From: a virus
Direction: 5' to 3' (one strand)
UHGV virus genome: UHGV-0124208
Length of the DNA stretch: 33,408 bases
Part shown: positions 11,045-31,745 of the stretch, one piece after another
Layout of the letters: every line of letters starts with the position of its first letter
Numbering within the stretch: the stretch's first letter is position 1
Made by a program: the position numbers and the translations under genes
The notes under the pieces: generated by a model
What the model was told of the DNA's origin: nothing
The model's input: only the letters and a program-made list of their open reading frames with translations
The model's database searches: none

Positions 11045-11646
11045 TGGATAACGCCGTATTAAATAGCGAGATTATTGCCACGAAGGCGGGGAATATTACC
11101 GTCTATAACTATGATGGTAAAACTCGGGAATATATTTCTACTTCAAATGAATATCTTGCCATTGGTGTCGGTATCCCTGCATATTCCTGTTTAGATTCAC
11201 CAGTTACACGTAAAGCTGGTTATGCAATCTGCCGTTCTGCAGATTTTAACTCATGGGAATATGTGCCAGATCATCGCGGTGAAATCGTTTTTAGCACCGA
11301 AACAGGAGAATCAAAAGAAATCACAGCACCAGGTGATTACCCTGAAAATACAACCACTATCGCCCCGTTAACGCCATACGATGAATGGGATGGTGAGAAA
11401 TGGGTGACGGATACCGAGGCACAGCATAGCGCCGCAGTAGACGCGGCAGAAGCACAGCGCCAGTCGCTGATTGATGCTGCAATGGCTTCCATTAGTCTGA
11501 TTCAGCTGAAATTACAGGCCGGGCGGAAGCTGACGCAGGCAGAAACCACCCGGCTTAACGCCGTGCTTGATTACATTGACGCGGTGACGGCAACAGATAC
11601 GAGCACCGCGCCGGATGTCATCTGGCCTGAACTGCCGGAGGCGTAG
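11044..11646 (+). CDS. G: Tail fibre assembly chaperone gpG (paired with the currently expressed H tip)
   Basis: 200-aa ORF overlapping the H stop (TAATGG); ends ...DVIWPELPEA, the typical Tfa C-terminus. Confidence 0.8.
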   Translation: MDNAVLNSEIIATKAGNITVYNYDGKTREYISTSNEYLAIGVGIPAYSCLDSPVTRKAGYAICRSADFNSWEYVPDHRGEIVFSTETGESKEITAPGDYPENTTTIAPLTPYDEWDGEKWVTDTEAQHSAAVDAAEAQRQSLIDAAMASISLIQLKLQAGRKLTQAETTRLNAVLDYIDAVTATDTSTAPDVIWPELPEA

Positions 11647-12058
11647 GCCATTCAATATCTGGCGCACCGGAAGTATCGACCAGTTCCAGTGCGTCCAGAT
11701 AATCCAGCCACAAATTATATTGCGCCAGTTCGTCACCTTTCAGACGACCAATAGCCGCTTTACCAGGCCATTGTTTACTGTTCATATAATCGTTGGCCTG
11801 ATTAATCAATTGCTGCTTTTCCAGTTCGGCTGCAGCAATCTGTTCCTCATGTGTTGGTGGTGGAATTTCAGACCATGCAGGAAAACCATTTTCTCCAGCG
11901 ATACGGATTTTTCCTTTCGGCGGTAATCCGGAAAACTCAATATACACCTGCTCATCAACTTCAACAGCATCATCTGGCCATGAGTCAGCTTGAGTGTAAT
12001 CCTCTTTCATCTCCAGCGGATAGAAAGAGTTTGTAGTCGCGGAATATATATAATTCAT
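11618..12058 (-). CDS. Alternative tail fibre assembly chaperone (G'), paired with the silent alternative H tip
   Basis: 146-aa minus-strand ORF convergent with, and overlapping, G; ends ...APDIEWPTPPAVQAR, the same Tfa C-terminal signature. Confidence 0.75.
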   Translation of the reverse strand: MNYIYSATTNSFYPLEMKEDYTQADSWPDDAVEVDEQVYIEFSGLPPKGKIRIAGENGFPAWSEIPPPTHEEQIAAAELEKQQLINQANDYMNSKQWPGKAAIGRLKGDELAQYNLWLDYLDALELVDTSGAPDIEWPTPPAVQAR

Positions 12059-12079
12059 TTCTCATTCCATATAGCTAAA

Positions 12080-12472
12080 TTAACAGCCTAACGCTAAAAA
12101 TGAAGCGCCGAGACCTGGAGTACCGGCTCTGGATATAAATTTAACCGGGTCGGAACTAAAACCTGCACAGGCAATATAACCAACAGCCCCGCTATCTGGT
12201 GTGTAGTCTTGTGAGACCAAAACACGCAGACATCTGTTCGGAAATGCAATCGGGAAATGGGTTACCACATCCTGTGCAATGCCTGGAGTGCTGATTGAGC
12301 CCCACTGAAGAATCAAACCAGATGGTAATTTTTGATATCCAGTACCTGAAACAGAAAGCGTGAAGCTACCCATATCAGGTATCTGATTCGCCCCTGTCCC
12401 CACATTCCTTTTTGCCGCTTCTCCCAAACCAACGTTTATGAAAATGCAGAGATAACGGCTAACTGGCATCAT
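12080..12472 (-). CDS. Alternative tail-fibre C-terminal tip segment (Hv'), promoterless; would fuse in frame to the H constant part after inversion
   Basis: Minus-strand ORF whose N-terminal region spans the 12419-12444 crossover site and encodes the same G-L-G-E junction as H; no independent start is expected (the ATG at 12472 is probably fortuitous). Confidence 0.65.
12419..12444. promoter_or_regulatory. Hin/Gin-type 26-bp inversion crossover site (right boundary of invertible segment)
   Basis: TTCTCCCAAACC-AA-CGTTTATGAAAA; its reverse complement aligns with the 10617 site (core TT, flanking half GGTTTGGGAGAA vs GGTTTAGGAGAA). Confidence 0.7.
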
Positions 12473-12499
12473 CTCCGGTTTTTATTCAGGGGGATGATC

Positions 12500-13066
12500 A
12501 TGCTTATTGGCTATGTACGCGTGTCAACAAATGACCAGAACACCGATTTGCAACGCAATGCACTGAACTGTGCGGGATGTGAGCGGATTTTTGAGGATAA
12601 AATCAGTGGCACCAAGTCCGACAGACCGGGGCTGAAAAAGCTGCTCAGGACACTATCGGCAGGAGACACGCTGGTTGTCTGGAAGCTGGACAGACTGGGG
12701 CGCAGTATGCGGCATCTTGTTACGCTGATAGAAGAGCTGCGCCAGCGTGGCGTGAATTTCCGAAGCCTGACTGACAGTATTGATACCAGCACCCCAATGG
12801 GCCGTTTCTTTTTTCATGTCATGGGTGCCCTGGCTGAAATGGAACGCGAACTGATAGTTGAACGTACCAGGGCGGGGCTGGCTGCAGCTCGTGCTAAAGG
12901 CAGAGTAGGTGGACGCCGTCCTAAGTTGACCAGCGAACAGTGGGCACAGATTGGGCGTTTACTCGAGGCCGGAGAATCAAGACAGCGTATTGCACTGATT
13001 TTTGATGTAGGCGTTTCTACCATTTATCGAAAATTTCCGGCAAATAAGAACAATAAATCTCCCTGA
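12500..13066 (+). CDS. Site-specific DNA invertase, serine recombinase of the Gin/Hin/Pin/Cin family
   Basis: MLIGYVRVSTNDQNTDLQRNAL...GDTLVVWKLDRLGRS...MGRFFFHVMGALAEMERELIVERT... is near-identical in motif content to Gin/Hin as I recall them (catalytic Ser in YVRVS). ATG 12500 chosen over 12494 for spacing to the GGGGG RBS. Confidence 0.9.
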   Translation: MLIGYVRVSTNDQNTDLQRNALNCAGCERIFEDKISGTKSDRPGLKKLLRTLSAGDTLVVWKLDRLGRSMRHLVTLIEELRQRGVNFRSLTDSIDTSTPMGRFFFHVMGALAEMERELIVERTRAGLAAARAKGRVGGRRPKLTSEQWAQIGRLLEAGESRQRIALIFDVGVSTIYRKFPANKNNKSP

Positions 13067-21646: not shown

Positions 21647-23416
21647 TCATACGTCAGGGGTAATCCAGTCGACTAAAGCCTCAATACTTTCGAAATCTGC
21701 ACAGATATCTGAAAGAGGTTGTGTATCTGCTTTTGTTTTGAAATCAGCCCATACTGATTCATTTTTTTCTGTAAGACCCAAATGGTTTTCTATCGAACCA
21801 TTTAGCCAAATCCAAATATTTGCATTTCTCAGTTTTGCGGCTAATGATGACAAAAATTCTCTGGCGCCGGGCTTTTGAGACATAATAGCAAATGCTTCAG
21901 CTGCGGTAGTGTTACTACCCTTTGTAGGCAAACCGGATCCATCGAGAGTGCATTCTCCATTAGCATGCATACTTCTCAAGATTTCTTTTAGTCGTAAAAT
22001 ATCCTCGTCATTATGTTCTAAGAAGTTGTTCCTTATTGCACCGCGGAACGCAAAATCTAAATCAACAATTGCTTTTGTAGGTATATCCATTGAATTTAGA
22101 ATTTGCATCGTTTTAGATATACTTTCAACGGACCCTGTTTCAATTAGTGCTATTTGCATCTGACCTAATGTTTTATTTTTAACTTTGTTAAAAATAAATG
22201 GGAGCAGAGTAGTCTCTGTTTTACCTTCTGTTAGTATTACATTGTTAGCAAACAAAACTTTTGAAGACTGTGTTAATGAAAATAAATGGGTTGCTTGTGC
22301 TGGTCGTTGTTCGATTACTTTATTGACTGCTTCTTTTAATGTTAATCTGCAATGAGTGCCACGCTGACTGTTTTTTCTGATTAACACAGTGTCTTTTGCT
22401 AAGTCAGAGGTAATCATTTGAGATGAATGGGTAGAGAAAATTATTTGATATCCATGATGAGATAGTGTTTTTAGAGATTCTCTAATTTGTTCGATAGCAA
22501 ATGGGTGAAGATATAACTCAGGTTCATCTATTAACAGTAGAGTAGTTGTTTTAATATCATCACCGTTGGTTATATCAGCTAAATGTCTTATTAGAGACAT
22601 CTGAATCGAACGCTGTGTGCCATGACCATAAGAAGAACAGTCACGAGCAATGCCGGGAAATGAATCTTCATATACTTTTACAGTCCCAGATTTAAATATA
22701 TCCTTGAAGTCAGGGAGTTCGAAGTGTAGTTTTAAACTTATCCCAGGGAAGAAATCAGCAAGTTTACTACTTATTGAATCATCAATATCATTGAGGTCCG
22801 ATATTCGTTTATTACCGGTTGCAGTCATTCTTCTATTAACGGCATTTAAATGGCTTAGTATCCTTTGAGTGTGCTTCTCTTCTATTTTGCAACTCAATTC
22901 TGCCAGCAACTTACCTATTGTAGTTCCTGTTTTTGATTTTGAAGAATCATCCGCTGCATTTTCCATTGCACCTATACGTATTGGGTCTGGAAATAAAGCT
23001 TTTATCGCATTCTCAATACCCGTTGGTGATGTCCTGAATTCGTTATTTTCTGGGTTTTTAATTAATAATCTGACGTCTTTTGCACTTTGAGCACCAACAG
23101 TCTGTTGACGCTTAAATATCAATACCCCATCAATAATGTAGGGTGAAATTCTAGTTCTGTTTTCTTCTGTTAAAGCTGACAAAATATCTTCAGTAATACC
23201 CTTAACTGTACCTATAACTTCTATAGGGTTATCTGGATTAGTATAATCATCAGAGGACAAAAGTTTTTTCTTAAAAAGCCATTCAATAGCATTTAAAATC
23301 GTTGACTTACCAGCATTGTTGTAACCGATTAAAGGCGTGAATGAAGAAAAATTGATATCAATATCTTTGCAAGATCTAAAGTTTTTTATAGAAATCTTTG
23401 AAAGATGATGATTCAT
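21647..23416 (-). CDS. old: OLD-family ATP-dependent nuclease (N-terminal ABC-type ATPase + C-terminal Toprim), P2 Old-like, single-gene
   Basis: 589-aa ORF. N-terminal Walker A in ISIKNFRSCK...LIGYNNAGKSTILNAI; central FGHGTQRSIQM and LLIDEPELYLHP (Walker B-like); C-terminal VILTEGKTET...VDLDF Toprim-like acidic motifs. AT-rich relative to flanks. Located between cI and int. Confidence 0.75.
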   Translation of the reverse strand: MNHHLSKISIKNFRSCKDIDINFSSFTPLIGYNNAGKSTILNAIEWLFKKKLLSSDDYTNPDNPIEVIGTVKGITEDILSALTEENRTRISPYIIDGVLIFKRQQTVGAQSAKDVRLLIKNPENNEFRTSPTGIENAIKALFPDPIRIGAMENAADDSSKSKTGTTIGKLLAELSCKIEEKHTQRILSHLNAVNRRMTATGNKRISDLNDIDDSISSKLADFFPGISLKLHFELPDFKDIFKSGTVKVYEDSFPGIARDCSSYGHGTQRSIQMSLIRHLADITNGDDIKTTTLLLIDEPELYLHPFAIEQIRESLKTLSHHGYQIIFSTHSSQMITSDLAKDTVLIRKNSQRGTHCRLTLKEAVNKVIEQRPAQATHLFSLTQSSKVLFANNVILTEGKTETTLLPFIFNKVKNKTLGQMQIALIETGSVESISKTMQILNSMDIPTKAIVDLDFAFRGAIRNNFLEHNDEDILRLKEILRSMHANGECTLDGSGLPTKGSNTTAAEAFAIMSQKPGAREFLSSLAAKLRNANIWIWLNGSIENHLGLTEKNESVWADFKTKADTQPLSDICADFESIEALVDWITPDV

Positions 23417-23459: not shown

Positions 23460-24398
23460 TTATTGTATTGTTAAGATAATGCTGGCTATAATTTGAATAT
23501 CCTCAATGGAACACTCAAAATCCTTACTCCCACCAGAAACAAGAATTTTGTTCTTAGGTAAACGAGTTAACTCTTTTAAAGATAACTCATTGTCAATTCC
23601 TACTAACCATTTTCCATCTCTAATTAGGTGAAATTCTTTATCACATATGACATGTTTTTCTCCATTGCTTACAAACATCAAGCTGCTAGTTTCTTGCTTC
23701 GGAAGTAGACACCGATCCATGGATAAAAAACCTGACTCGACAAGCACGCCATTGACCAAATTGAACTTATTTAAAATTACAGTGTTTTCTTCTTGTGAAC
23801 TATTTGGTGTTTCGATTCCTGTAACTAGCCAGGCGAGATCCGCTTTGGTTTCTAATGCGCATTTAATCACCCAATCCGCAGGGAAAGAATCTCGCATGTA
23901 TCGTGTGGCTAATGTGCTTTTTGAAATACCAAGGTGGTCGGCTAAGGCTTGGCGGGTTTTAAACCCGTAAGCATTAACAATCCTCTCTATCGCGGCTTTT
24001 CCTCCGTTAGTAAGCTCAATGTGATTCTCAATGCGGCGCTTAAAGGATGATTGATGAGCGTTGCTGTTAAACCCCTCATGTGGGACTGTTTCATCATGTT
24101 GTTCCACATAAGGGGGGAAACTTTCTTCTGCATTGTTAGAACCAAAGGCCAGCCATTCTAGGGATGCGCCAGTTTCCATTGAACATATAACAACCCAATC
24201 AGCAGGGAAGGTATCGCGTGCATATCTATTAGCCATTGTGCTTTGTGAAATACCAAGATGCTTACAGAAGGCTTGGCGTGATTTGAAACCATAGGCCTTG
24301 AGTATCCTCTCAATGACTTTTTGCCCTCCACGATTCTGCATGACCATAGCTTTCAGACTATCTTCAATATGGCGAAATGTGATTTTTTGAGTTGACAT
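23460..24398 (-). CDS. cI: Immunity repressor CI, coliphage 186 type, with a tandemly duplicated N-terminal DNA-binding domain
   Basis: 312-aa ORF. Residues about 28-85 (VIERILKAYGFKSRQAFCKHLGISQSTMANRYARDTFPADWVVICSMETGASLEWLAFG) and about 128-185 (AIERIVNAYGFKTRQALADHLGISKSTLATRYMRDSFPADWVIKCALETKADLAWLVTG) are two copies of the 186 CI N-terminal domain motif; about 125-aa C-terminal domain. Divergent from apl-cII. Confidence 0.75.
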   Translation of the reverse strand: MSTQKITFRHIEDSLKAMVMQNRGGQKVIERILKAYGFKSRQAFCKHLGISQSTMANRYARDTFPADWVVICSMETGASLEWLAFGSNNAEESFPPYVEQHDETVPHEGFNSNAHQSSFKRRIENHIELTNGGKAAIERIVNAYGFKTRQALADHLGISKSTLATRYMRDSFPADWVIKCALETKADLAWLVTGIETPNSSQEENTVILNKFNLVNGVLVESGFLSMDRCLLPKQETSSLMFVSNGEKHVICDKEFHLIRDGKWLVGIDNELSLKELTRLPKNKILVSGGSKDFECSIEDIQIIASIILTIQ

Positions 24399-25829: not shown

Positions 25830-26063
25830 ATGCGTAATATTGAAACCCTCACGACTAAAACCGGACCGGATGATGCAGGGCTTAATAGTTTACTGACAGA
25901 GGCTCGTCTGGAAGAACGCCGGGCAAGGGCTGAAGCAATGGCAGCTCGCCTTGATAGCCTGGCGTGTCATATCACATCCCGCCAGCTAAACCACGTCGAA
26001 GCAGCAGAACTACTTCGTGTAACTGCTGAAGCAATCCAGAACGAAGCGCAGGAGATCCACTAA
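25830..26063 (+). CDS. Hypothetical early protein
   Basis: 77-aa ORF from ATG 25830 (RBS AGGAG at 25817-25821); no family recognised. Confidence 0.5.
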   Translation: MRNIETLTTKTGPDDAGLNSLLTEARLEERRARAEAMAARLDSLACHITSRQLNHVEAAELLRVTAEAIQNEAQEIH

Positions 26064-26290
26064 TGGCTGATGCAATGGATCTTGTACAGCAGCGCGTTGA
26101 AGAAGAACGCCAGCGCCATATCCGTGCTGCCCGTGCCAAAACGCCGGGCGTGTCCCGCGTGCTTTGCATTGAGTGTGAAGCGCCAATTCCGCCAGCACGC
26201 CGCCGCGCCATTCCAGGTGTGCAGCTTTGCATTACCTGTCAGGAAATCGCAGAGCTGAAAGGCAAACATTACAACGGAGGTGCTGTATGA
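26063..26290 (+). CDS. TraR/DksA-family C4 zinc-finger protein
   Basis: 75-aa ORF with CIECEAPIP...CITCQ (CxxC-N17-CxxC), characteristic of phage TraR-like proteins (P2 orf82-like position). Confidence 0.75.
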   Translation: MADAMDLVQQRVEEERQRHIRAARAKTPGVSRVLCIECEAPIPPARRRAIPGVQLCITCQEIAELKGKHYNGGAV

Positions 26291-27144
26291 GCACCATCCT
26301 GAAATGGGCGGGAAATAAAACCGCAATTATGTCCGAACTGAAAAAACACCTTCCTGCTGGCCCGCGACTGGTTGAACCTTTCGCGGGTTCCTGTGCTGTG
26401 ATGATGGAGACGGATTATCCAAGCTATCTGGTTGCGGATATTAATCCTGATTTAATCAACCTCTATAAAAAGGTTGCCGCTGATTGTGAATCGTTTATAT
26501 CTCGCGCCAGAGTTTTATTTGAGATCGCAAACAGGGAGGTGGCTTATTACAACATAAGGCAGGAGTTTAATTACTCCACTGAAATTACTGATTTCATGAA
26601 AGCGGTATATTTCCTGTATCTCAATCGTCACGGTTACCGTGGTTTATGTCGCTATAACAAGAGCAGGCATTTCAACATTCCCTACGGTAATTATAAAAAT
26701 CCGTATTTCCCTGAAAAAGAACTTCGCACATTTGCAGAAAAAGCCCAGCGAGCAACGTTTGTCTGCGCCAGCTTTGATGAAACGCTGGCGATGTTGAAGG
26801 CGGGGGATGTGGTGTATTGCGATCCGCCGTATGACGGTACGTTTTCCGGCTATCACACTGATGGTTTCACTGAAGATGACCAGTATCACCTGGCATCCGT
26901 TCTTGAACATCGGTCATCAGAAGGACATCCGGTCATTGTTTCTAACAATGACACATCCCTGATTCGTTCGCTGTATCGCAATTTTACTCACCACTATATC
27001 AAGGCAAAACGCAGCATCGGCGTGTCAGCTGGCGAGGGTAAATCTGCAACAGAAATCATTGCTGTTTCCGGGCCGAGTTGCTGGTTGGGATTTGATCCTT
27101 CGCGTGGCGTGGATAGTTCTGCCGTGTACGGAGTGTGTGTATGA
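26287..27144 (+). CDS. DNA N6-adenine methyltransferase (Dam/D12 class)
   Basis: From ATG 26287: [11 protein letters not shown]...EPFAGSCAV... (AdoMet-binding region) and VYCDPPYDG (DPPY catalytic motif); overlaps the upstream stop (ATGA) and the A start. Confidence 0.85.
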
Positions 27145-29555
27145 GTCATGACGATATGAACAATTGCAGCGGCTTTAACGAGGCCGCCGCAGCATTTTCA
27201 TGGAACGGCCCGAAAAAGGCCATTAACCCTTATCTGGACCCGGCGGAAGTTGCGCCGGAGTCTGCACTTTCAAACCTGATCACTCTGTACGCTGCCGATA
27301 ACGAGCAGGAACAACTGCGCCGCGAGGCACTGAGTGAGCAGGTCTGGGAGCGTTATTTCTTTAATGAATCCCGTGATCCTGTCCAGCGCGAAATGGAGCA
27401 GGATAAGCTCATTAGCCGGGCAAAGCTGGCGCATGAGCAGCAGCGTTTTAATCCGGACATGGTCATTCTGGCGGACGTAAACGCCCAGCCTTCCCATATC
27501 AGCAAGCCGCTGATGCAACGTATTGAATACTTCAGCAGCCTGGGCAGGCCAAAGGCTTATTCCCGCTATTTGCGTGAGACGATTAAGCCATGTCTGGAGC
27601 GACTGGATTGTGTACGTGACAGTCAGCTATCTGTTTCTTTCCGTTTTATGGCAAGCCATCAAGGGCTGGAGGGTCTGCTGATCCTGCCTGAAATGAGCCA
27701 GGATCAGGTGAAACGCCTGTCCACCCTGGTAGCAGCGCATATGAGCATGTGTCTTGAGGACGCTTGTGGTGATTTGTATGCCACCGATGACGTTAAGCCA
27801 GAAGAAATCCGCAAGACATGGGAAAAGGTGGCAGCGGAAACCCTGCGTCTGGATGTTATCCCGCCTGCGTTTGAGAAACTTCGTCGGAAAAGAAACCGCC
27901 GCAAACCAGTGCCCTATGAACTCATCCCGGGTTCGCTGGCGCGTATGTTGTGTGCCGACTGGTGGTATCGGAAATTATGGAAGATGCGTTGCGAATGGCG
28001 GGAAGAGCAGTTGCGTGCTGTCTGCCTGGTCAGCAAAAAAGCATCCCCCTATGTCAGCTATGAAGCCGTGATGCATAAACGTGAGCAGCGCCGTAAGTCG
28101 CTGGAGTTTTTTCGTTCTCATGAACTGGTGAACGAAGACGGCGACACGCTGGATATGGAAGATGTGGTAAACGCCAGCAGCAGCAACCCGGCGCATCGCC
28201 GCAATGAGATGATGGCCTGTGTTAAAGGTCTGGAGCTTATCGCGGAAATGCGCAGTGACTGTGCCGTTTTCTACACTATCACCTGTCCGTCGCGTTTCCA
28301 TTCCACGCTCAATAACGGCAGACCAAACCCGACCTGGACAAACGCGACGGTAAGACAAAGTAGCGATTATCTGGTCGGCATGTTTGCTGCATTTCGTAAG
28401 GCTATGCATAAAGCCGAGTTGCGCTGGTATGGCGTGCGGGTAGCTGAGCCGCATCATGACGGTACTGTGCACTGGCATCTCATGTGTTTCATGCGTAAAA
28501 AAGACCGCCGCGCCATCACTGCATTACTGCGTAAGTTTGCCATCCGTGAAGACCGCGAGGAGCTGGGCAATAACACGGGACCACGCTTTAAGTCTGAGCT
28601 GATAAACCCGCGCAAAGGTACGCCAACAAGCTATATCGCGAAATACATCAGTAAGAACATTGACGGGCGTGGTCTGGCTGGGGAGATCAGCAAGGAAACG
28701 GGTAAATCCCTGCGTGATAACGCTGAATACGTTAATGCCTGGGCGTCTCTGCATCGTGTTCAGCAATTCCGCTTCTTTGGCATTCCGGGGCGTCAGGCTT
28801 ACCGTGAACTGCGATTGCTGGCTGGTCAGGCGGCAAGGCAACAGGGTGACAAAAAAGCAGGTGCGCCGGTACTGGATAACCCGCGTCTTGATGCAATCCT
28901 GGCTGCTGCTGATGCTGGTTGTTTTGCCACCTACATCATGAAGCAGGGCGGCGTTCTGGTTCCCCGCAAATATCACCTCATCAGAACTGCTTATGAAATC
29001 AACGAAGAACCGACCGCATATGGCGATCACGGTATTCGTATTTATGGCATCTGGTCACCCATTGCAGAGGGCAAGATCTGCACTCATGCGGTGAAGTGGA
29101 AAATGGTTCGTAAGGCCGTTGACGTTCAGGAGGCGGCAGCCGACCAGGGCGCTTGCGCCCCTTGGACTCGTGGCAATAACTGTCCCCTTGCTGAAAATTT
29201 GAACCAACAAGGGAAAGACAAATCAGCTGATGGGGACTCCAGAACGGATATTACCCGTATGAATGACAAGGAGTTGCACGATTACCTGCACAGTATGAGC
29301 AAAAAAGAGCGCCGGGAACTGGCTGCAAGGTTACGCCAGGTGAAACCGAAACGGCGTAAAGACTACAAACAGCGAATTACAGACCATCAGCGACAGCAGC
29401 TCGTCTATGAACTGAAGTCCAGGGGATTTGATGGCAGCGAGAAAGAAGTCGATTTGCTCCTTCGCGGCGGCAGTATTCCGTCAGGAGCAGGCCTGCGTAT
29501 CTTCTATCGGAACCAGCGTCTGAAGGAAGATGATAAGTGGCGGAACCTGTATTAA
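27141..29555 (+). CDS. A: Replication initiator gpA (rolling-circle HUH endonuclease)
   Basis: About 804-aa ORF (ATG 27141) containing [13 protein letters not shown] (HUH-type motif of P2 gpA-family initiators); position as P2 A. Confidence 0.85.
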
Positions 29556-29707: not shown

Positions 29708-29896
29708 ATGCAGGACTATTTTTTGGAGTCTTTGAAGCTCCAGCGCATTGATTTTTTTCTTAAGCTTGTAGCGGCTAGTGAGTGTAGTGATGAAGAGAAG
29801 GGGCTGGCTCTGCAGTGGGTTTCTGAATTGACTGATGAACTCATGGCAAAAATCAGAAGCCACGAATACAACCGCTCAATGGATGTCATCAGCTGA
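29708..29896 (+). CDS. Small SOS-regulated protein, first gene of the Tum-like module (function unknown; candidate antirepressor component)
   Basis: 62-aa ORF with RBS AGGAGG, directly downstream of the LexA box. Confidence 0.55.
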   Translation: MQDYFLESLKLQRIDFFLKLVAASECSDEEKGLALQWVSELTDELMAKIRSHEYNRSMDVIS

Positions 29897-29906
29897 GGTG
29901 ACTTTT

Positions 29907-30140
29907 ATGCGCATTGAAATAATGATCGATAAAGAGCAGAAGATTAGCCAGTCTACCCTGGACGCACTTGAATCCGAGCTTTACCGCAATCTGCGCCCCC
30001 TGTATCCCAAAACGGTAATTCGCATTCGCAAAGGTAGCTCTAACGGTGTGGAACTAACCGGACTGCAACTGGATGAAGAAAGAAAACAAGTGATGAAAAT
30101 TATGCAGAAGGTGTGGGAGGACGACAGCTGGCTGCATTAA
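29907..30140 (+). CDS. DinI-family protein (Tum C-terminal-domain-like)
   Basis: From ATG 29907: MRIEIMIDKEQKISQSTLDALESELYRNLRPLYPKTVIRIRKGSSNGVELTGLQLDEERKQVMKIMQKVWEDDSWLH, which aligns by eye with E. coli DinI (MRIEVTIAK...; ...ILQETWESADDW). Confidence 0.75.
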   Translation: MRIEIMIDKEQKISQSTLDALESELYRNLRPLYPKTVIRIRKGSSNGVELTGLQLDEERKQVMKIMQKVWEDDSWLH

Positions 30141-30332: not shown

Positions 30333-30668
30333 TTACGAATGATCATTCTGTTTAGTCTTCATGAGAAAATCCCGAATCTTTGCCAAGTTTGAATTTTCGG
30401 GGATTGAATCCATGTACGGATCACGCTCAAACACTAATTGCTCAGATTCAACGAAAGCCTGCCACTCTACTGGGTCTAGCTCAAATCCCATTGCTGTCAT
30501 ATCACTTTCATCTTCCCCCTCGATCCAGTGGACTAAATAAAACAATTCATCATCAGGAGAATCATCCTCACCATCAACAATATCAACATCGGTTACAGTG
30601 ATACGTAGGGTGGGATCGATTTTTGAGACATAAATTCCTAACTGTGGTATAGGGGGAATATTGTTCAT
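30333..30668 (-). CDS. Highly acidic small protein of unknown function (accessory / moron gene)
   Basis: 111-aa minus-strand ORF with a strong RBS (AAAGGAGTTTCC before ATG); D/E-rich (e.g. DVDIVDGEDDSPDDE, EGEDESD); AT-rich; lies between the DinI-like gene and the putative cos site. Confidence 0.65.
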   Translation of the reverse strand: MNNIPPIPQLGIYVSKIDPTLRITVTDVDIVDGEDDSPDDELFYLVHWIEGEDESDMTAMGFELDPVEWQAFVESEQLVFERDPYMDSIPENSNLAKIRDFLMKTKQNDHS

Positions 30669-31047
30669 GGAAACTCCTTTTATTGGTGTTTGCTATTTGA
30701 ATAAAAATACGCCAAACAGAGTGTTAACTGTGAATATGGAAAGAATCGTTGTAAGTACCCCGCTTAGGTGTCCCATTCTATTTTAGAGGTTCTCGTGCAT
30801 ATGGATTATGTTATCTGAAAGTTAACTTCCGCTTCCCGTTCACAGCGAACATTCATCTTTGTAAACCCGTATGATCCGTTTTTCAAGTGGCCATTCAGAT
30901 ACGGATTTTCACTTCCTTGACAGTGCATGACTATGCTGCATGAAATCGCATGATCGATTGAGGATCGTCTTTGCTCAGATCCGCCAGAACTGGCGGGCTT
31001 TTGCTCATGTCATGCATGTGCATGAAAACCACTGCATAAAGCGGGCA

Positions 31048-31066
31048 GGCGTGGCGGGGATACGAG
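31048..31066. other. Candidate cos (cohesive-end) site
   Basis: GGCGTGGCGGGGATACGAG: the first 13 nt match the 19-nt cohesive end I recall for 186 (GGCGTGGCGGGGAAAGCAT; P2 GGCGAGGCGGGGAAAGCAC). Lies in the only sizeable non-coding stretch between A and Q. The last 6 nt differ, so the exact ends are uncertain. Confidence 0.45.
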
Positions 31067-31155: not shown

Positions 31156-31701
31156 ATGGACGTTATAACTGGAGTTGCAGAGTTTTTTCGAAAAGTACCT
31201 GCAGCATTTCTTGTGGCTATTACATGTGTTTTAGGTCTTATACTTTTTCTGCCAGACTCTTTGGCAGTAAAAGTGGCTGTTGATGGCTTTCGTAATGAGT
31301 ATAGGATTTTTATTGGACCTGCATTTTTACTGTCTGTATCTTATTTAGTTGCAAGAGTCTATCTCTCTTTCTATGACTTACTTGGTGAAAGGCAGGCTAA
31401 GAAGGTACGCACTTCCTACCTTGAGAAGCTAACAGCAGAAGAAAAAGGATATTTAAAGTCTTATATTACCGAAGGTGTTAATTCACTTATGTGTGGGCCT
31501 GAGGATGGGGTCATGGGGGGACTTGTGGCTAAGGGGATTACTTATAGAGCCACCAGTGTTGGGGATATGATCTACGGTTTTGCTTTCAACTTACAGCCAT
31601 GGGCGCGTGAACATTTAGAGAAAAATAGTCATTTATTAGATGGGGCTATTGGGCGTGCAATGACTCCAAGAGAAAAATTAAACTTTAGATTGGGACGCTA
31701 A
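31156..31701 (+). CDS. Membrane protein with two N-terminal TM helices, unknown function (accessory gene between cos and Q)
   Basis: 181-aa ORF with RBS GGAGG; hydrophobic segments AAFLVAITCVLGLILFLP and IFIGPAFLLSVSYLVARVYL followed by a soluble domain; AT-rich; followed by a strong hairpin. Confidence 0.65.
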   Translation: MDVITGVAEFFRKVPAAFLVAITCVLGLILFLPDSLAVKVAVDGFRNEYRIFIGPAFLLSVSYLVARVYLSFYDLLGERQAKKVRTSYLEKLTAEEKGYLKSYITEGVNSLMCGPEDGVMGGLVAKGITYRATSVGDMIYGFAFNLQPWAREHLEKNSHLLDGAIGRAMTPREKLNFRLGR

Positions 31702-31730
31702 CCAGTCACACATTACCAATGTGTGACTGG
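31702..31730. terminator. Perfect 13-bp stem / 3-nt loop hairpin between the convergent 181-aa gene and Q (putative bidirectional terminator)
   Basis: CCAGTCACACATT-acc-AATGTGTGACTGG read directly, followed on the plus strand by a T-rich run (TGGTGGTTATTTCTTTTATT). Confidence 0.6.
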
Positions 31731-31745
31731 TGGTGGTTATTTCTT

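What the first reader, a model, noticed from the sequence alone, without database searches (positions are those of the whole stretch)
26287..27144. Dam-class adenine methyltransferase translationally coupled between the TraR-like gene and A
An orphan Dam-type MTase (DPPY motif) overlaps its neighbours by ATGA on both sides in the early replication operon. Such enzymes can protect phage DNA from restriction or alter host gene expression; 186 and P2 themselves do not carry one as far as I recall.
Basis: partly seen in the sequence, partly recalled or inferred. Interest (0 to 1): 0.3.

Follow-up and report, generated by a model that had tools for sequence, protein, structure and literature searches.

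The report
Known prophage Dam adenine methyltransferase gene
This is an ordinary, already annotated DNA adenine (Dam-type) methyltransferase gene that many P2/186-like prophages of E. coli, Klebsiella and Salmonella carry just upstream of their replication gene A; it is real and probably active, but not new.

Summary
Window 26287-27144 (+) is an intact 285-aa ORF. Its ATG overlaps the stop of the upstream TraR/DksA zinc-finger gene (ATGA), and its stop overlaps the ATG of replication gene A (ATGA). It is a full-length D12-class Dam-family enzyme: PF02086 E=8e-76, and TIGR00571 at 317 bits against a cutoff of 115. It is 46% identical to E. coli Dam. The DPPY motif, the SAM-binding residues and six of seven GATC-recognition residues are conserved. 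No restriction enzyme lies next to it.

It is not novel. The exact protein is already in NCBI. The gene occurs at >=90% identity in 1239 of 5426 complete E. coli genomes and in 56 phage records. It is 96% identical to a protein annotated 'retron EC67 DNA adenine methylase', described in 1990. Among 80 related viral contigs, 67 carry it in the same slot, with the overlaps conserved and dN/dS of 0.08-0.24.

Most likely it is an early-lytic, CI-repressed GATC methylase that tops up methylation of replicating phage DNA. Its translation is probably coupled to that of A. The biological role and the GATC specificity are inferred, not shown. Interest is low.

The parts
26287..27144 (+). Dam-family orphan DNA N6-adenine methyltransferase gene (285 aa plus stop)
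   Evidence: PF02086 E=8e-76; TIGR00571 316.8 bits (cutoff 114.85); PADLOC best match 'orphan methyltransferase' E=1e-110; 46% identity to E. coli Dam (PDB 2G1P/4GOL, E=2e-73)
26276..26280 (+). Shine-Dalgarno sequence GGAGG for the Dam gene, inside the 3' end of the TraR-like gene
   Evidence: Read directly from the sequence
26287..26290 (+). ATGA start/stop overlap between the TraR-like gene and Dam
   Evidence: ATGA at this junction in 66 of 67 related loci
26374..26394 (+). Motif I / SAM-binding stretch E30-P-F32-A-G34-S-C36 (EcoDam E33, F35, G37; G39 is replaced by C). D51 (EcoDam D54) follows at nt 26437-26439.
   Evidence: Pairwise alignment with EcoDam
26626..26697 (+). Target-recognition hairpin, residues 114-137 ([24 protein letters not shown]). 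It holds Y117, L120, R122, P132 and Y136, which correspond to EcoDam Y119, L122, R124, P134 and Y138. R118 replaces EcoDam N120.
   Evidence: Alignment; residue roles from PMC4417163; the stretch is >=95% conserved in 63 distinct phage homologues
26821..26832 (+). Catalytic motif IV, DPPY (residues 179-182)
   Evidence: present in 66 of 67 related loci
27130..27133 (+). GGAG Shine-Dalgarno-like element for gene A, inside the 3' end of Dam
   Evidence: Read directly from the sequence
27141..27144 (+). ATGA start/stop overlap between Dam and gene A
   Evidence: ATGA (38) or GTGA (21) at this junction in 67 related loci
26063..26290 (+). Upstream neighbour: TraR/DksA-family C4 zinc-finger gene (P2 Orf82 / 186 CP81 position)
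   Evidence: PF01258 E=3e-11; TIGR02419 65.8 bits. Its start overlaps the preceding DUF2732 gene (TAATG at 26061-26065)
27141..29555 (+). Downstream neighbour: rolling-circle replication initiator gpA (804 aa). The predicted ori nick site is near 29164.
   Evidence: PF05840 E=4e-127; alignment to the P2 and 186 ori regions
27163..27197 (+). Possible (weak, inferred) hairpin plus T-run inside the first 60 nt of A. It could terminate untranslated transcripts, by analogy with 186 tM1.
   Evidence: RNA fold of 27111-27270; 186 record note on tM1. The terminator scan did not detect it and its conservation was not tested.

Best explanation
The gene encodes a functional, stand-alone (orphan) Dam-family DNA methyltransferase. 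It uses S-adenosylmethionine to methylate N6 of adenine, most probably in GATC.

It is the second-to-last gene of the early lytic operon of a 186/Fels-2-type (Peduoviridae) prophage. That operon runs Apl/Cox-like, CII, a small ORF in the position of 186 fil (not tested here), DUF5347, DUF2732, TraR-like, Dam, A. The gene should therefore be silent under CI repression and be made only after infection or induction, together with the rolling-circle replication initiator A.

Its reading frame is joined to both neighbours by 4-nt ATGA overlaps, each with its own Shine-Dalgarno sequence. Ribosomes finishing the TraR-like gene can therefore restart on Dam, and ribosomes finishing Dam can restart on A. 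Dam and A would then be made in a fixed ratio, and A expression probably depends on translation through Dam.

The most likely biological role is to supply extra Dam activity while phage DNA is replicating faster than the small pool of host Dam can follow. Progeny genomes (112 GATC sites in this window) would then leave the cell fully methylated. That should protect them from methylation-sensitive GATC restriction enzymes in the next host. It should also keep them from being treated as hemimethylated or unmethylated DNA by SeqA and MutH.

Shown here: the gene anatomy, family membership, residue conservation, purifying selection, and conserved position and overlaps. Inferred: catalytic activity, GATC specificity, timing of expression, coupling, and the biological role.
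For: Family and fold:
- PF02086 matches end to end (E=8e-76). TIGR00571 'dam' scores 316.8 bits (cutoff 114.85).
- The best solved relatives with E <= 1e-16 are all GATC enzymes: E. coli Dam (E=2e-73), DpnM (2e-33) and T4 Dam (6e-17).

Residues:
- Catalytic DPPY is conserved. So are EcoDam F35, G37 and D54 (SAM binding) and K9, Y119, L122, R124, P134 and Y138 (GATC contacts and intercalation). Their roles are taken from PMC4417163.

Orphan status:
- The neighbours are a zinc-finger gene and A. The best PADLOC model is 'orphan methyltransferase'.

Selection:
- 40 ungapped homologous genes give dN/dS of 0.08-0.24 over residues 1-263.
- DPPY is intact in 66 of 67 loci.

Operon and coupling:
- The gene order with CI, CII, DUF5347, DUF2732, TraR and A matches the 186 early operon.
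- Overlaps are conserved in 66 of 67 loci (5' junction) and 59 of 67 (3' junction).
- The 186 GenBank record states that translation to the end of the gene preceding A 'appears necessary for translation of A protein' and annotates a terminator for untranslated A transcripts.

Co-inheritance:
- Dam identity tracks A identity across loci (r=0.96).

Prior description:
- The protein is 96% identical to one annotated 'retron EC67 DNA adenine methylase'.
- The Ec67 34-kb 186-like element was reported to encode a Dam methylase (Hsu et al. 1990, as cited in PMC7826664).

Literature supporting parts of the proposed role:
- A prophage Dam homologue in ST131 was transcribed at a low level in the lysogen (PMC4659465). 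I could not verify that it belongs to the same family.
Against: - No methylation data exist for this sequence.
- The hosts (E. coli, Klebsiella, Salmonella) already have Dam, so the enzyme looks redundant and its benefit is unproven.
- EcoDam N120, which hydrogen-bonds DNA bases, is R118 here. Five residues after DPPY are deleted. Altered or relaxed specificity is therefore not excluded.
- The protein scores below the cut-off of the host-Dam equivalog model (286 against 441 bits).
- GATC is neither enriched nor strongly avoided in the window (observed/expected 0.72, mid-range for 4-bp palindromes). The genome composition gives no signal either way.
- About nine close relatives lack the gene, so it is dispensable for the phage.
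Confidence: 0.8

Rival explanations
1. The enzyme mainly acts on the host rather than on phage DNA. A burst of Dam activity early in lytic growth would over-methylate the chromosome. That would abolish the hemimethylated state needed for SeqA sequestration of oriC and for strand discrimination by MutH, or would change Dam-sensitive host promoters, to the phage's benefit.
For: The gene is made with other early genes whose 186 counterparts interfere with the host: Fil (cell division) and Dhr (host replication). Host Dam already methylates GATC, so extra activity would chiefly change the kinetics of methylation. Dam overproduction has host-level effects, for example triggering retron-Sen2 toxicity by methylating msDNA (bioRxiv 10.1101/2020.06.22.160242).
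Against: There is no direct evidence. This reading is not exclusive of the main explanation. The tight linkage and co-divergence with the phage replication initiator (r=0.96) fit a role on replicating phage DNA at least as well.
Confidence: 0.2
2. The enzyme is a Dam-fold methyltransferase with a specificity other than plain GATC (a related or relaxed site). It would then add a mark that host Dam cannot supply.
For: N120 is replaced by R118, and there is a 5-residue deletion after DPPY relative to EcoDam. The protein scores below the host-Dam equivalog cut-off. A 2015 methylome paper stated that no recognition site had been determined for homologues of a prophage Dam-like enzyme, because none could be assigned in a dam+ background (PMC4659465). 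The D12 class is known, from my own knowledge, to include non-GATC enzymes such as M.EcoRV.
Against: Six of the seven EcoDam residues that read or intercalate GATC are identical, including R124, the main discriminator. All close solved relatives are GATC enzymes. The Ec67 homologue was described as having Dam methylase function, though I know this only from the paper's title as cited.
Confidence: 0.07
3. The ORF is kept mainly as a translational conduit that delivers ribosomes to gene A. Its enzymatic activity would be dispensable or decaying.
For: The slot before A holds unrelated genes in other phages: DUF5405 in P2; exonuclease, DUF5405 and PAPS reductase in 186; DUF3850, PAPS reductase or nothing in close relatives. 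In 186, translation of the preceding gene is reported to be needed for A.
Against: Purifying selection acts across the whole catalytic body (dN/dS 0.08-0.24). Catalytic and DNA-contact residues are conserved in 63 distinct homologues. A mere conduit would not preserve these.
Confidence: 0.04
4. The gene is the modification half of a restriction-modification system carried by the prophage.
For: PADLOC type II MTase models also match (E=4e-85). The prophage carries other defence genes, an Old-family nuclease and a SieB-like protein.
Against: No restriction endonuclease gene is adjacent. Both neighbours are identified, and the arrangement TraR-Dam-A is conserved in 67 loci. The best PADLOC model is the orphan class. 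Annotated near-identical phages list no restriction enzyme in this region.
Confidence: 0.01

Closest known systems
Dam methylase of the retron-Ec67 element (a 186-related prophage) and of Felsduovirus/Elveevirus phages (Salmonella RE-2010, Klebsiella 4LV2017 and KP12, Escherichia vB_EcoM-813R9)
   Same: Same length (285 aa), 93-97% identity, and the same position between the TraR-like zinc-finger gene and A with the same overlapping junctions. The exact protein sequence is already deposited for E. coli.
   Different: Only a few substitutions. This prophage carries a SieB-like gene in the cos-portal slot, where Ec67 and 4LV2017 carry a retron.
Escherichia coli chromosomal Dam (EcoDam, PDB 2G1P/4GOL)
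   Same: Same fold family and domain order. 46% identity over 269 aligned residues. DPPY, the SAM-binding residues and K9, Y119, L122, R124, P134 and Y138 are conserved.
   Different: It is not the orthologue: it scores below the NF008152 equivalog cut-off. N120 is R. There is a 5-residue deletion after DPPY. A poorly conserved 22-residue C-terminal tail carries the ribosome-binding site for A. It is phage-borne and, by its operon position, expressed only in lytic growth.
Dam enzymes of other phages (T4 Dam, P1/P7 Dam-Dmt)
   Same: These are also orphan, phage-encoded GATC adenine methyltransferases of the D12 class. Phage Dams are regarded as anti-restriction functions (bioRxiv 10.1101/2020.06.22.160242).
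   Different: They are only distantly related: about 35% identity to P7 Dam, and E=6e-17 to T4 Dam. Their genomic contexts differ. From my own knowledge, P1 needs Dam methylation of its pac site for packaging; no such dependence is known here.
The variable slot between the zinc-finger gene and A in P2 (Orf83) and 186 (orf82-orf84)
   Same: Same position in the early operon, non-essential cargo, and the last gene overlaps the A start. The 186 record reports dependence of A translation on the preceding gene.
   Different: The gene content is unrelated (DUF5405, exonuclease, PAPS-reductase-like). P2 and 186 have no Dam homologue anywhere in their genomes.
Dam plus Dcm methyltransferase pair upstream of A in Senquatrovirus SEN5 and Irrigatiovirus SW3
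   Same: A methyltransferase cargo sits immediately upstream of A in other Peduoviridae genera.
   Different: Their Dam is a different lineage (38-42% identity, 327 aa) and is accompanied by a C5-cytosine methyltransferase, which is absent here.

Membership tests
D12-class / Dam-family N6-adenine DNA methyltransferase (PF02086, TIGR00571) | Full-length match to the family profiles above the curated cut-offs | tested here: met
   PF02086 255.5 bits (cutoff 22), profile positions 1-253 of 253. TIGR00571 316.8 bits (cutoff 114.85).
D12-class / Dam-family N6-adenine DNA methyltransferase (PF02086, TIGR00571) | Catalytic motif IV (D/N)PP(Y/F) | tested here: met
   DPPY at residues 179-182; conserved in 66 of 67 relatives.
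D12-class / Dam-family N6-adenine DNA methyltransferase (PF02086, TIGR00571) | SAM-binding motif I (FxGxG) and the acidic residue of motif II, placed N-terminal to the recognition domain and motif IV (alpha-group order) | tested here: met
   F32-A-G34-S-C36 (the last G is replaced by C) and D51 (EcoDam D54). The order is motif I (30-36), recognition hairpin (114-137), DPPY (179-182).
D12-class / Dam-family N6-adenine DNA methyltransferase (PF02086, TIGR00571) | Residues that read GATC in EcoDam (K9, Y119, N120, L122, R124, P134, Y138) | tested here: met
   Six of seven are identical; N120 is R118. Residue roles are from PMC4417163.
D12-class / Dam-family N6-adenine DNA methyltransferase (PF02086, TIGR00571) | Methylation of adenine N6 in GATC (enzymatic activity) | not testable with these tools
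   This needs DpnI/MboI digestion or SMRT/nanopore methylome analysis of a dam- host expressing the gene.
Chromosomal Dam orthologue (NCBIfam equivalog NF008152 / PRK10904) | Score above the equivalog cut-off | tested here: not met
   286.1 bits against a cut-off of 441. This is a phage paralogue, not the host dam gene.
Orphan (solitary) methyltransferase | No cognate restriction endonuclease gene adjacent | tested here: met
   The neighbours are the TraR-like gene and gpA. The best PADLOC model is oMTase PDLC03729, E=1e-110. The same arrangement is found in 67 loci.
Retron-Ec67 / Felsduovirus-type prophage Dam | Near-identity in sequence and length to the described protein | tested here: met
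   271/283 identical to P0148, annotated 'retron EC67 DNA adenine methylase', 285 aa. That name was given by an annotation source. The original 1990 sequence itself was not available for comparison.
Retron-Ec67 / Felsduovirus-type prophage Dam | Location in the early operon of a 186-like prophage, between the TraR-like gene and A | tested here: met
Type II restriction-modification system | Paired restriction endonuclease of the same specificity | tested here: not met
   No candidate lies next to the gene, and none is annotated in this region of near-identical phages. The whole window was not exhaustively screened for endonucleases.

The most novel reading that the evidence does not exclude
The phage Dam may be part of a methylation checkpoint on packaging, as in P1 pac. 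Two GATC sites 11 bp apart sit at a fixed -96/-85 bp from the cos site (window 30952 and 30963). They are present in about 70 of 77 related contigs, while P2 and 186, which lack Dam, have no GATC in the 160 bp before cos. Methylation of this pair by the early-expressed Dam could control terminase binding or read-through of the adjacent terminator. A second, related possibility is that the enzyme is the determinant sensed by GATC-bearing retron msDNAs. This would set up an arms race with the retrons that occupy the cos-portal slot in sister prophages (Ec67, 4LV2017).
Probability: 0.05. Interest if true: 0.45.

Novelty: already known. Interest (0 to 1): 0.1.

Why it matters
It matters little as a discovery. 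The gene is correctly annotated in public records, and its family has been known since the description of the Ec67 element.

Its practical relevance is modest:
- About a quarter of E. coli genomes carry this second, lytic-phase Dam. In dam+ hosts its activity is invisible to methylome studies, so its specificity and benefit have never been cleanly measured.
- Phage Dam activity is a known trigger of some retron defences and a presumed anti-restriction function. Presence or absence of this gene could therefore influence the host range of P2-like temperate phages and of the satellites they mobilise.
- The conserved overlaps make this a convenient natural case for studying translational coupling to the replication initiator.

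Tried and rejected
- Invalid result: the first tblastn of Dam against P2 and 186 printed 'none' only because the files were not where the script looked. I repeated it properly and found no homologue.
- Rfam: a scan of the whole window at gathering thresholds found nothing.
- GATC cluster at 30952/30963/30978: by a Poisson estimate, about 0.5 such clusters are expected by chance in this window, so the cluster is not significant on its own. Its conservation cannot be separated from the general conservation of the cos region. I kept it only as a speculative lead.
- GATC at the replication origin: the nick-site equivalent maps near 29164, and the nearest GATC sites are 90-140 bp away. I dropped this idea.
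- C-terminal tail (residues 264-285, absent from EcoDam): I suspected an extra conserved module, but its non-synonymous divergence is high (mean pN 0.19 against 0.08 in the body). It is a loosely constrained tail that carries the A ribosome-binding site.
- Antisense promoter-like site at 26717-26690 inside the gene: the scan found fewer promoter-like sites than in shuffled sequence (3 against 10.9), so this is not meaningful.
- Hsu et al. 1990: I tried to read it (PMC55184) but it is not held. What I say about it rests on citations in PMC7826664 and PMC8989520 and on the annotation name.
- M.EcoMIV: I tried to locate the ST131 EC958 Phi2 prophage to test whether M.EcoMIV belongs to this family. 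Two 50-kb stretches did not contain it, so the link is left unverified.
- Retron RNA: a search for a retron msr RNA in Klebsiella phage 4LV2017 found no Rfam match.
- Structure prediction was not run. 46% identity to a solved structure over residues 4-263 makes it unnecessary.

Full report
**Observation**

- It runs from ATG 26287 to TGA 27142-27144 on the + strand and encodes 285 aa.
- Window 26287-26290 reads ATGA. The start codon overlaps the TGA of the upstream 75-aa ORF (26063-26290).
- Window 27141-27144 also reads ATGA. The ATG of the 804-aa downstream ORF overlaps the Dam stop.
- A GGAGG lies 6 nt before the Dam ATG, and a GGAG lies before the downstream ATG.
- The longer TTG-initiated version listed by the ORF tool (26227) is not the likely start. 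The alignment to E. coli Dam begins at residue 4 of the ATG-initiated protein, and annotated homologues use the 858-nt frame.

**Identity of the gene and its neighbours**

The protein matches Pfam PF02086 (D12-class N6-adenine methyltransferase) over the whole profile, E=8.1e-76. It matches NCBIfam TIGR00571 'Dam family site-specific DNA-(adenine-N6)-methyltransferase' at 316.8 bits against a cut-off of 114.85. It falls below the cut-off of the equivalog model for the chromosomal enzyme (286 against 441 bits).

Against solved structures, the matches with E <= 1e-16 are all GATC-specific enzymes: E. coli Dam (E=2e-73), DpnM (2e-33) and T4 Dam (6e-17).

The upstream neighbour is a TraR/DksA C4 zinc-finger protein. 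The downstream neighbour is the P2-type replication initiator gpA (PF05840, E=4e-127). Further upstream lie DUF2732, DUF5347, a CII (CP76) homologue, an Apl/Cox-sized ORF and a divergent CI repressor. This is the early lytic operon of a 186-type phage.

No restriction endonuclease is adjacent, and the best PADLOC model is 'orphan methyltransferase'.

**Residue-level check against E. coli Dam**

A pairwise alignment gives 46% identity over 269 positions (this part of the call is valid).
- Conserved: the catalytic DPPY (179-182), and F32, G34 and D51, which correspond to the SAM-binding F35, G37 and D54.
- Conserved: K6, Y117, L120, R122, P132 and Y136. These correspond to K9, Y119, L122, R124, P134 and Y138, the residues that recognise or intercalate GATC in EcoDam. 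R124 is the main discriminator (PMC4417163).
- Different: N120 is R118, five residues after DPPY are deleted, and there is a 22-residue C-terminal tail.

I therefore predict GATC specificity. This is an inference.

**Is it new? No.**
- The exact protein sequence is already in NCBI as 'DNA adenine methylase [Escherichia coli]', seen on 39 contigs.
- The gene is found at >=90% nucleotide identity in 1239 of 5426 complete E. coli genomes. It is annotated 'DNA adenine methylase', flanked by 'TraR/DksA family transcriptional regulator' and 'replication endonuclease'.
- It is found in 56 phage records (Klebsiella 4LV2017, KP12 and the Kp48xx series; Escherichia vB_EcoM-813R9; Salmonella RE-2010; a Felsduovirus record), with the same gene order.
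- It is 96% identical to a protein that an NCBI source names 'retron EC67 DNA adenine methylase'.
- The 34-kb Ec67 element was reported in 1990 to encode a Dam methylase (Hsu, Inouye and Inouye, cited in PMC7826664 and PMC8989520). It was later shown to be a 186-related prophage (Dodd and Egan 1996, cited in PMC6868368 and PMC7826664). I could not read the 1990 paper itself.
- The homologue search found 6438 proteins at E<=1e-40 across Enterobacterales.

**P2 and 186**

tblastn of the protein against the complete P2 and 186 genomes gives only noise (best E 0.46 and 0.067).
- In P2, the space between the zinc-finger gene (Orf82) and A holds Orf83 (DUF5405).
- In 186, it holds an exonuclease-like gene, a DUF5405 gene and a PAPS-reductase-like gene.

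**Survey of relatives**

I fetched 80 IMG/VR contigs encoding the closest gpA relatives (76-98% identity). I then classified what lies upstream of A.
- 67 contigs carry the Dam gene. Most have TraR, Dam, A in that order (46 with the full upstream set, plus 3 with a shorter or partial upstream set). Twelve have a DUF3850 gene inserted before Dam. Five have a PAPS-reductase gene between Dam and A. One has an exonuclease gene before Dam.
- About nine contigs with enough upstream sequence lack Dam.
- The pre-A position is therefore a modular cargo slot, and Dam is its commonest occupant in this lineage.
- The 5' junction is ATGA in 66 of 67 loci. The 3' junction is ATGA in 38 and GTGA in 21. DPPY is intact in 66 of 67.
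- Dam identity to the window ranges from 59 to 97% and tracks gpA identity (r=0.96). This points to co-inheritance with the replication module rather than frequent exchange.
- Nei-Gojobori estimates on 40 ungapped genes give dN/dS of 0.08-0.24 for residues 1-263. The tail (264-285) is much less constrained.
- In other Peduoviridae genera (SEN5, SW3), a different Dam lineage plus a C5-cytosine methyltransferase occupy the same slot.

**Mechanism**

The position in the operon implies CI-repressed, early-lytic expression together with A. This is inferred.

A low transcript level for a prophage Dam homologue in an ST131 lysogen fits this (PMC4659465). I could not confirm that this enzyme is of the same family.

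The chain of overlaps runs DUF2732/TraR (TAATG), TraR/Dam (ATGA), Dam/A (ATGA), each with a Shine-Dalgarno sequence. This chain and its conservation argue for translational coupling.

The 186 GenBank record states that translation to the end of the gene preceding A appears necessary for A translation. It also annotates a terminator inside the start of A that acts when A is not translated.

A weak hairpin followed by TTTT lies at 27163-27197 in this window. It was not found by the terminator scan, and I did not test its conservation.

The likely purpose of the enzyme is to keep rolling-circle progeny DNA fully GATC-methylated when host Dam is limiting. [quoted passage not shown] A host-directed effect of a Dam burst is a non-exclusive rival.

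**Checks that gave nothing**
- GATC occurs 112 times in the window. Observed/expected is 0.72, unremarkable among 4-bp palindromes.
- There is no GATC at the predicted ori nick site (~29164).
- There are no Rfam matches.

**A lead**

A cos-like 19-mer (GGCGTGGCGGGGATACGAG) lies at 31048. Two GATC sites sit at -96 and -85 from it, and this pair is present in about 70 of 77 related contigs, including those lacking Dam. P2 and 186 have no GATC in the 160 bp before cos. The whole -120 to +26 block is conserved, so this is not independent evidence of a Dam-dependent signal. I record it as the basis of the most novel reading, with low probability.

**Verdict**

The feature is an ordinary, already described and routinely annotated prophage gene. 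Novelty: already known. Interest: 0.1.

Noticed in passing
window 30952-30981 and 31048-31066: A cos-like 19-mer (GGCGTGGCGGGGATACGAG) lies at 31048. Two GATC sites 11 bp apart sit at -96/-85 from it, and a third overlaps a terminator-like hairpin at 30980-30997. The pair is present in about 70 of 77 related contigs, including Dam-less ones. P2 and 186 have no GATC in the 160 bp before cos. The whole cos-proximal block is conserved, so the significance is unclear.
   Followed up: partly
window 31156-31701 (+), with hairpin 31701-31731: A SieB-like superinfection-exclusion gene (PF14163, E=4.5e-25) sits between cos and the terminator of the portal gene. This is the slot where retrons Ec67 and Ec86 sit in 186-related prophages.
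   Followed up: partly
window 21647-23416 (-): A 589-aa Old-family ATPase/TOPRIM nuclease (PADLOC Old 776 bits; PF13175 and PF20469) is inserted between the integrase and the cI repressor. This is a different place from the old gene of P2.
   Followed up: partly
window 23460-24398 (-): The CI repressor is 312 aa and contains two copies of the Phage_CI_repr helix-turn-helix domain (2 matched stretches) plus the CI C-terminal domain. 186 CI is 192 aa. The same 939-bp CI is listed for the Klebsiella Kp52145 prophage (PMC7826664).
   Followed up: no
window 29835-30140 (+): A DinI/Tum-like gene (PF06183, E=1e-22) lies downstream of A, in the position of the 186 SOS-inducible antirepressor tum. Its promoter and any LexA box were not examined.
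   Followed up: no
window 11618-13066: A Hin/Gin-type serine invertase (PF00239, E=2e-53; 12494-13066, +) lies next to minus-strand tail-fibre C-terminal and tail-fibre assembly genes (12080-12472 and 11618-12058). This suggests an invertible host-range segment.
   Followed up: no
window 30333-30668 (-): A 111-aa acidic ORF with no Pfam or PADLOC match lies in the variable region between the DinI-like gene and cos.
   Followed up: no
L091 (Klebsiella phage 4LV2017) 5984-6841 and 10905-12888: A sister phage with a 96.6% identical Dam gene carries a 'retron St85 family effector' plus a polymerase (reverse transcriptase) in the cos-portal slot. St85/Sen2-type retrons are reported to be triggered by Dam over-expression. 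No Rfam msr match was found in the region.
   Followed up: partly
L088 (Salmonella phage SEN5) 2998-4987; L089 (phage SW3) 2998-5128: Other Peduoviridae genera carry a different, longer Dam (327 aa, about 40% identity) together with a C5-cytosine methyltransferase immediately upstream of gene A.
   Followed up: partly
proteins P0008, P0009, P0075: Some E. coli records hold 456-496-aa proteins in which this Dam domain is fused to a Phage_GPD (PF05954) domain. These are probably deletion remnants of degraded prophages or annotation artefacts.
   Followed up: no
window 26821-26824: The codons for Asp-Pro of the catalytic DPPY motif (GAT CCG) themselves form a GATC site, so the gene carries its own predicted target inside its catalytic motif.
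   Followed up: no
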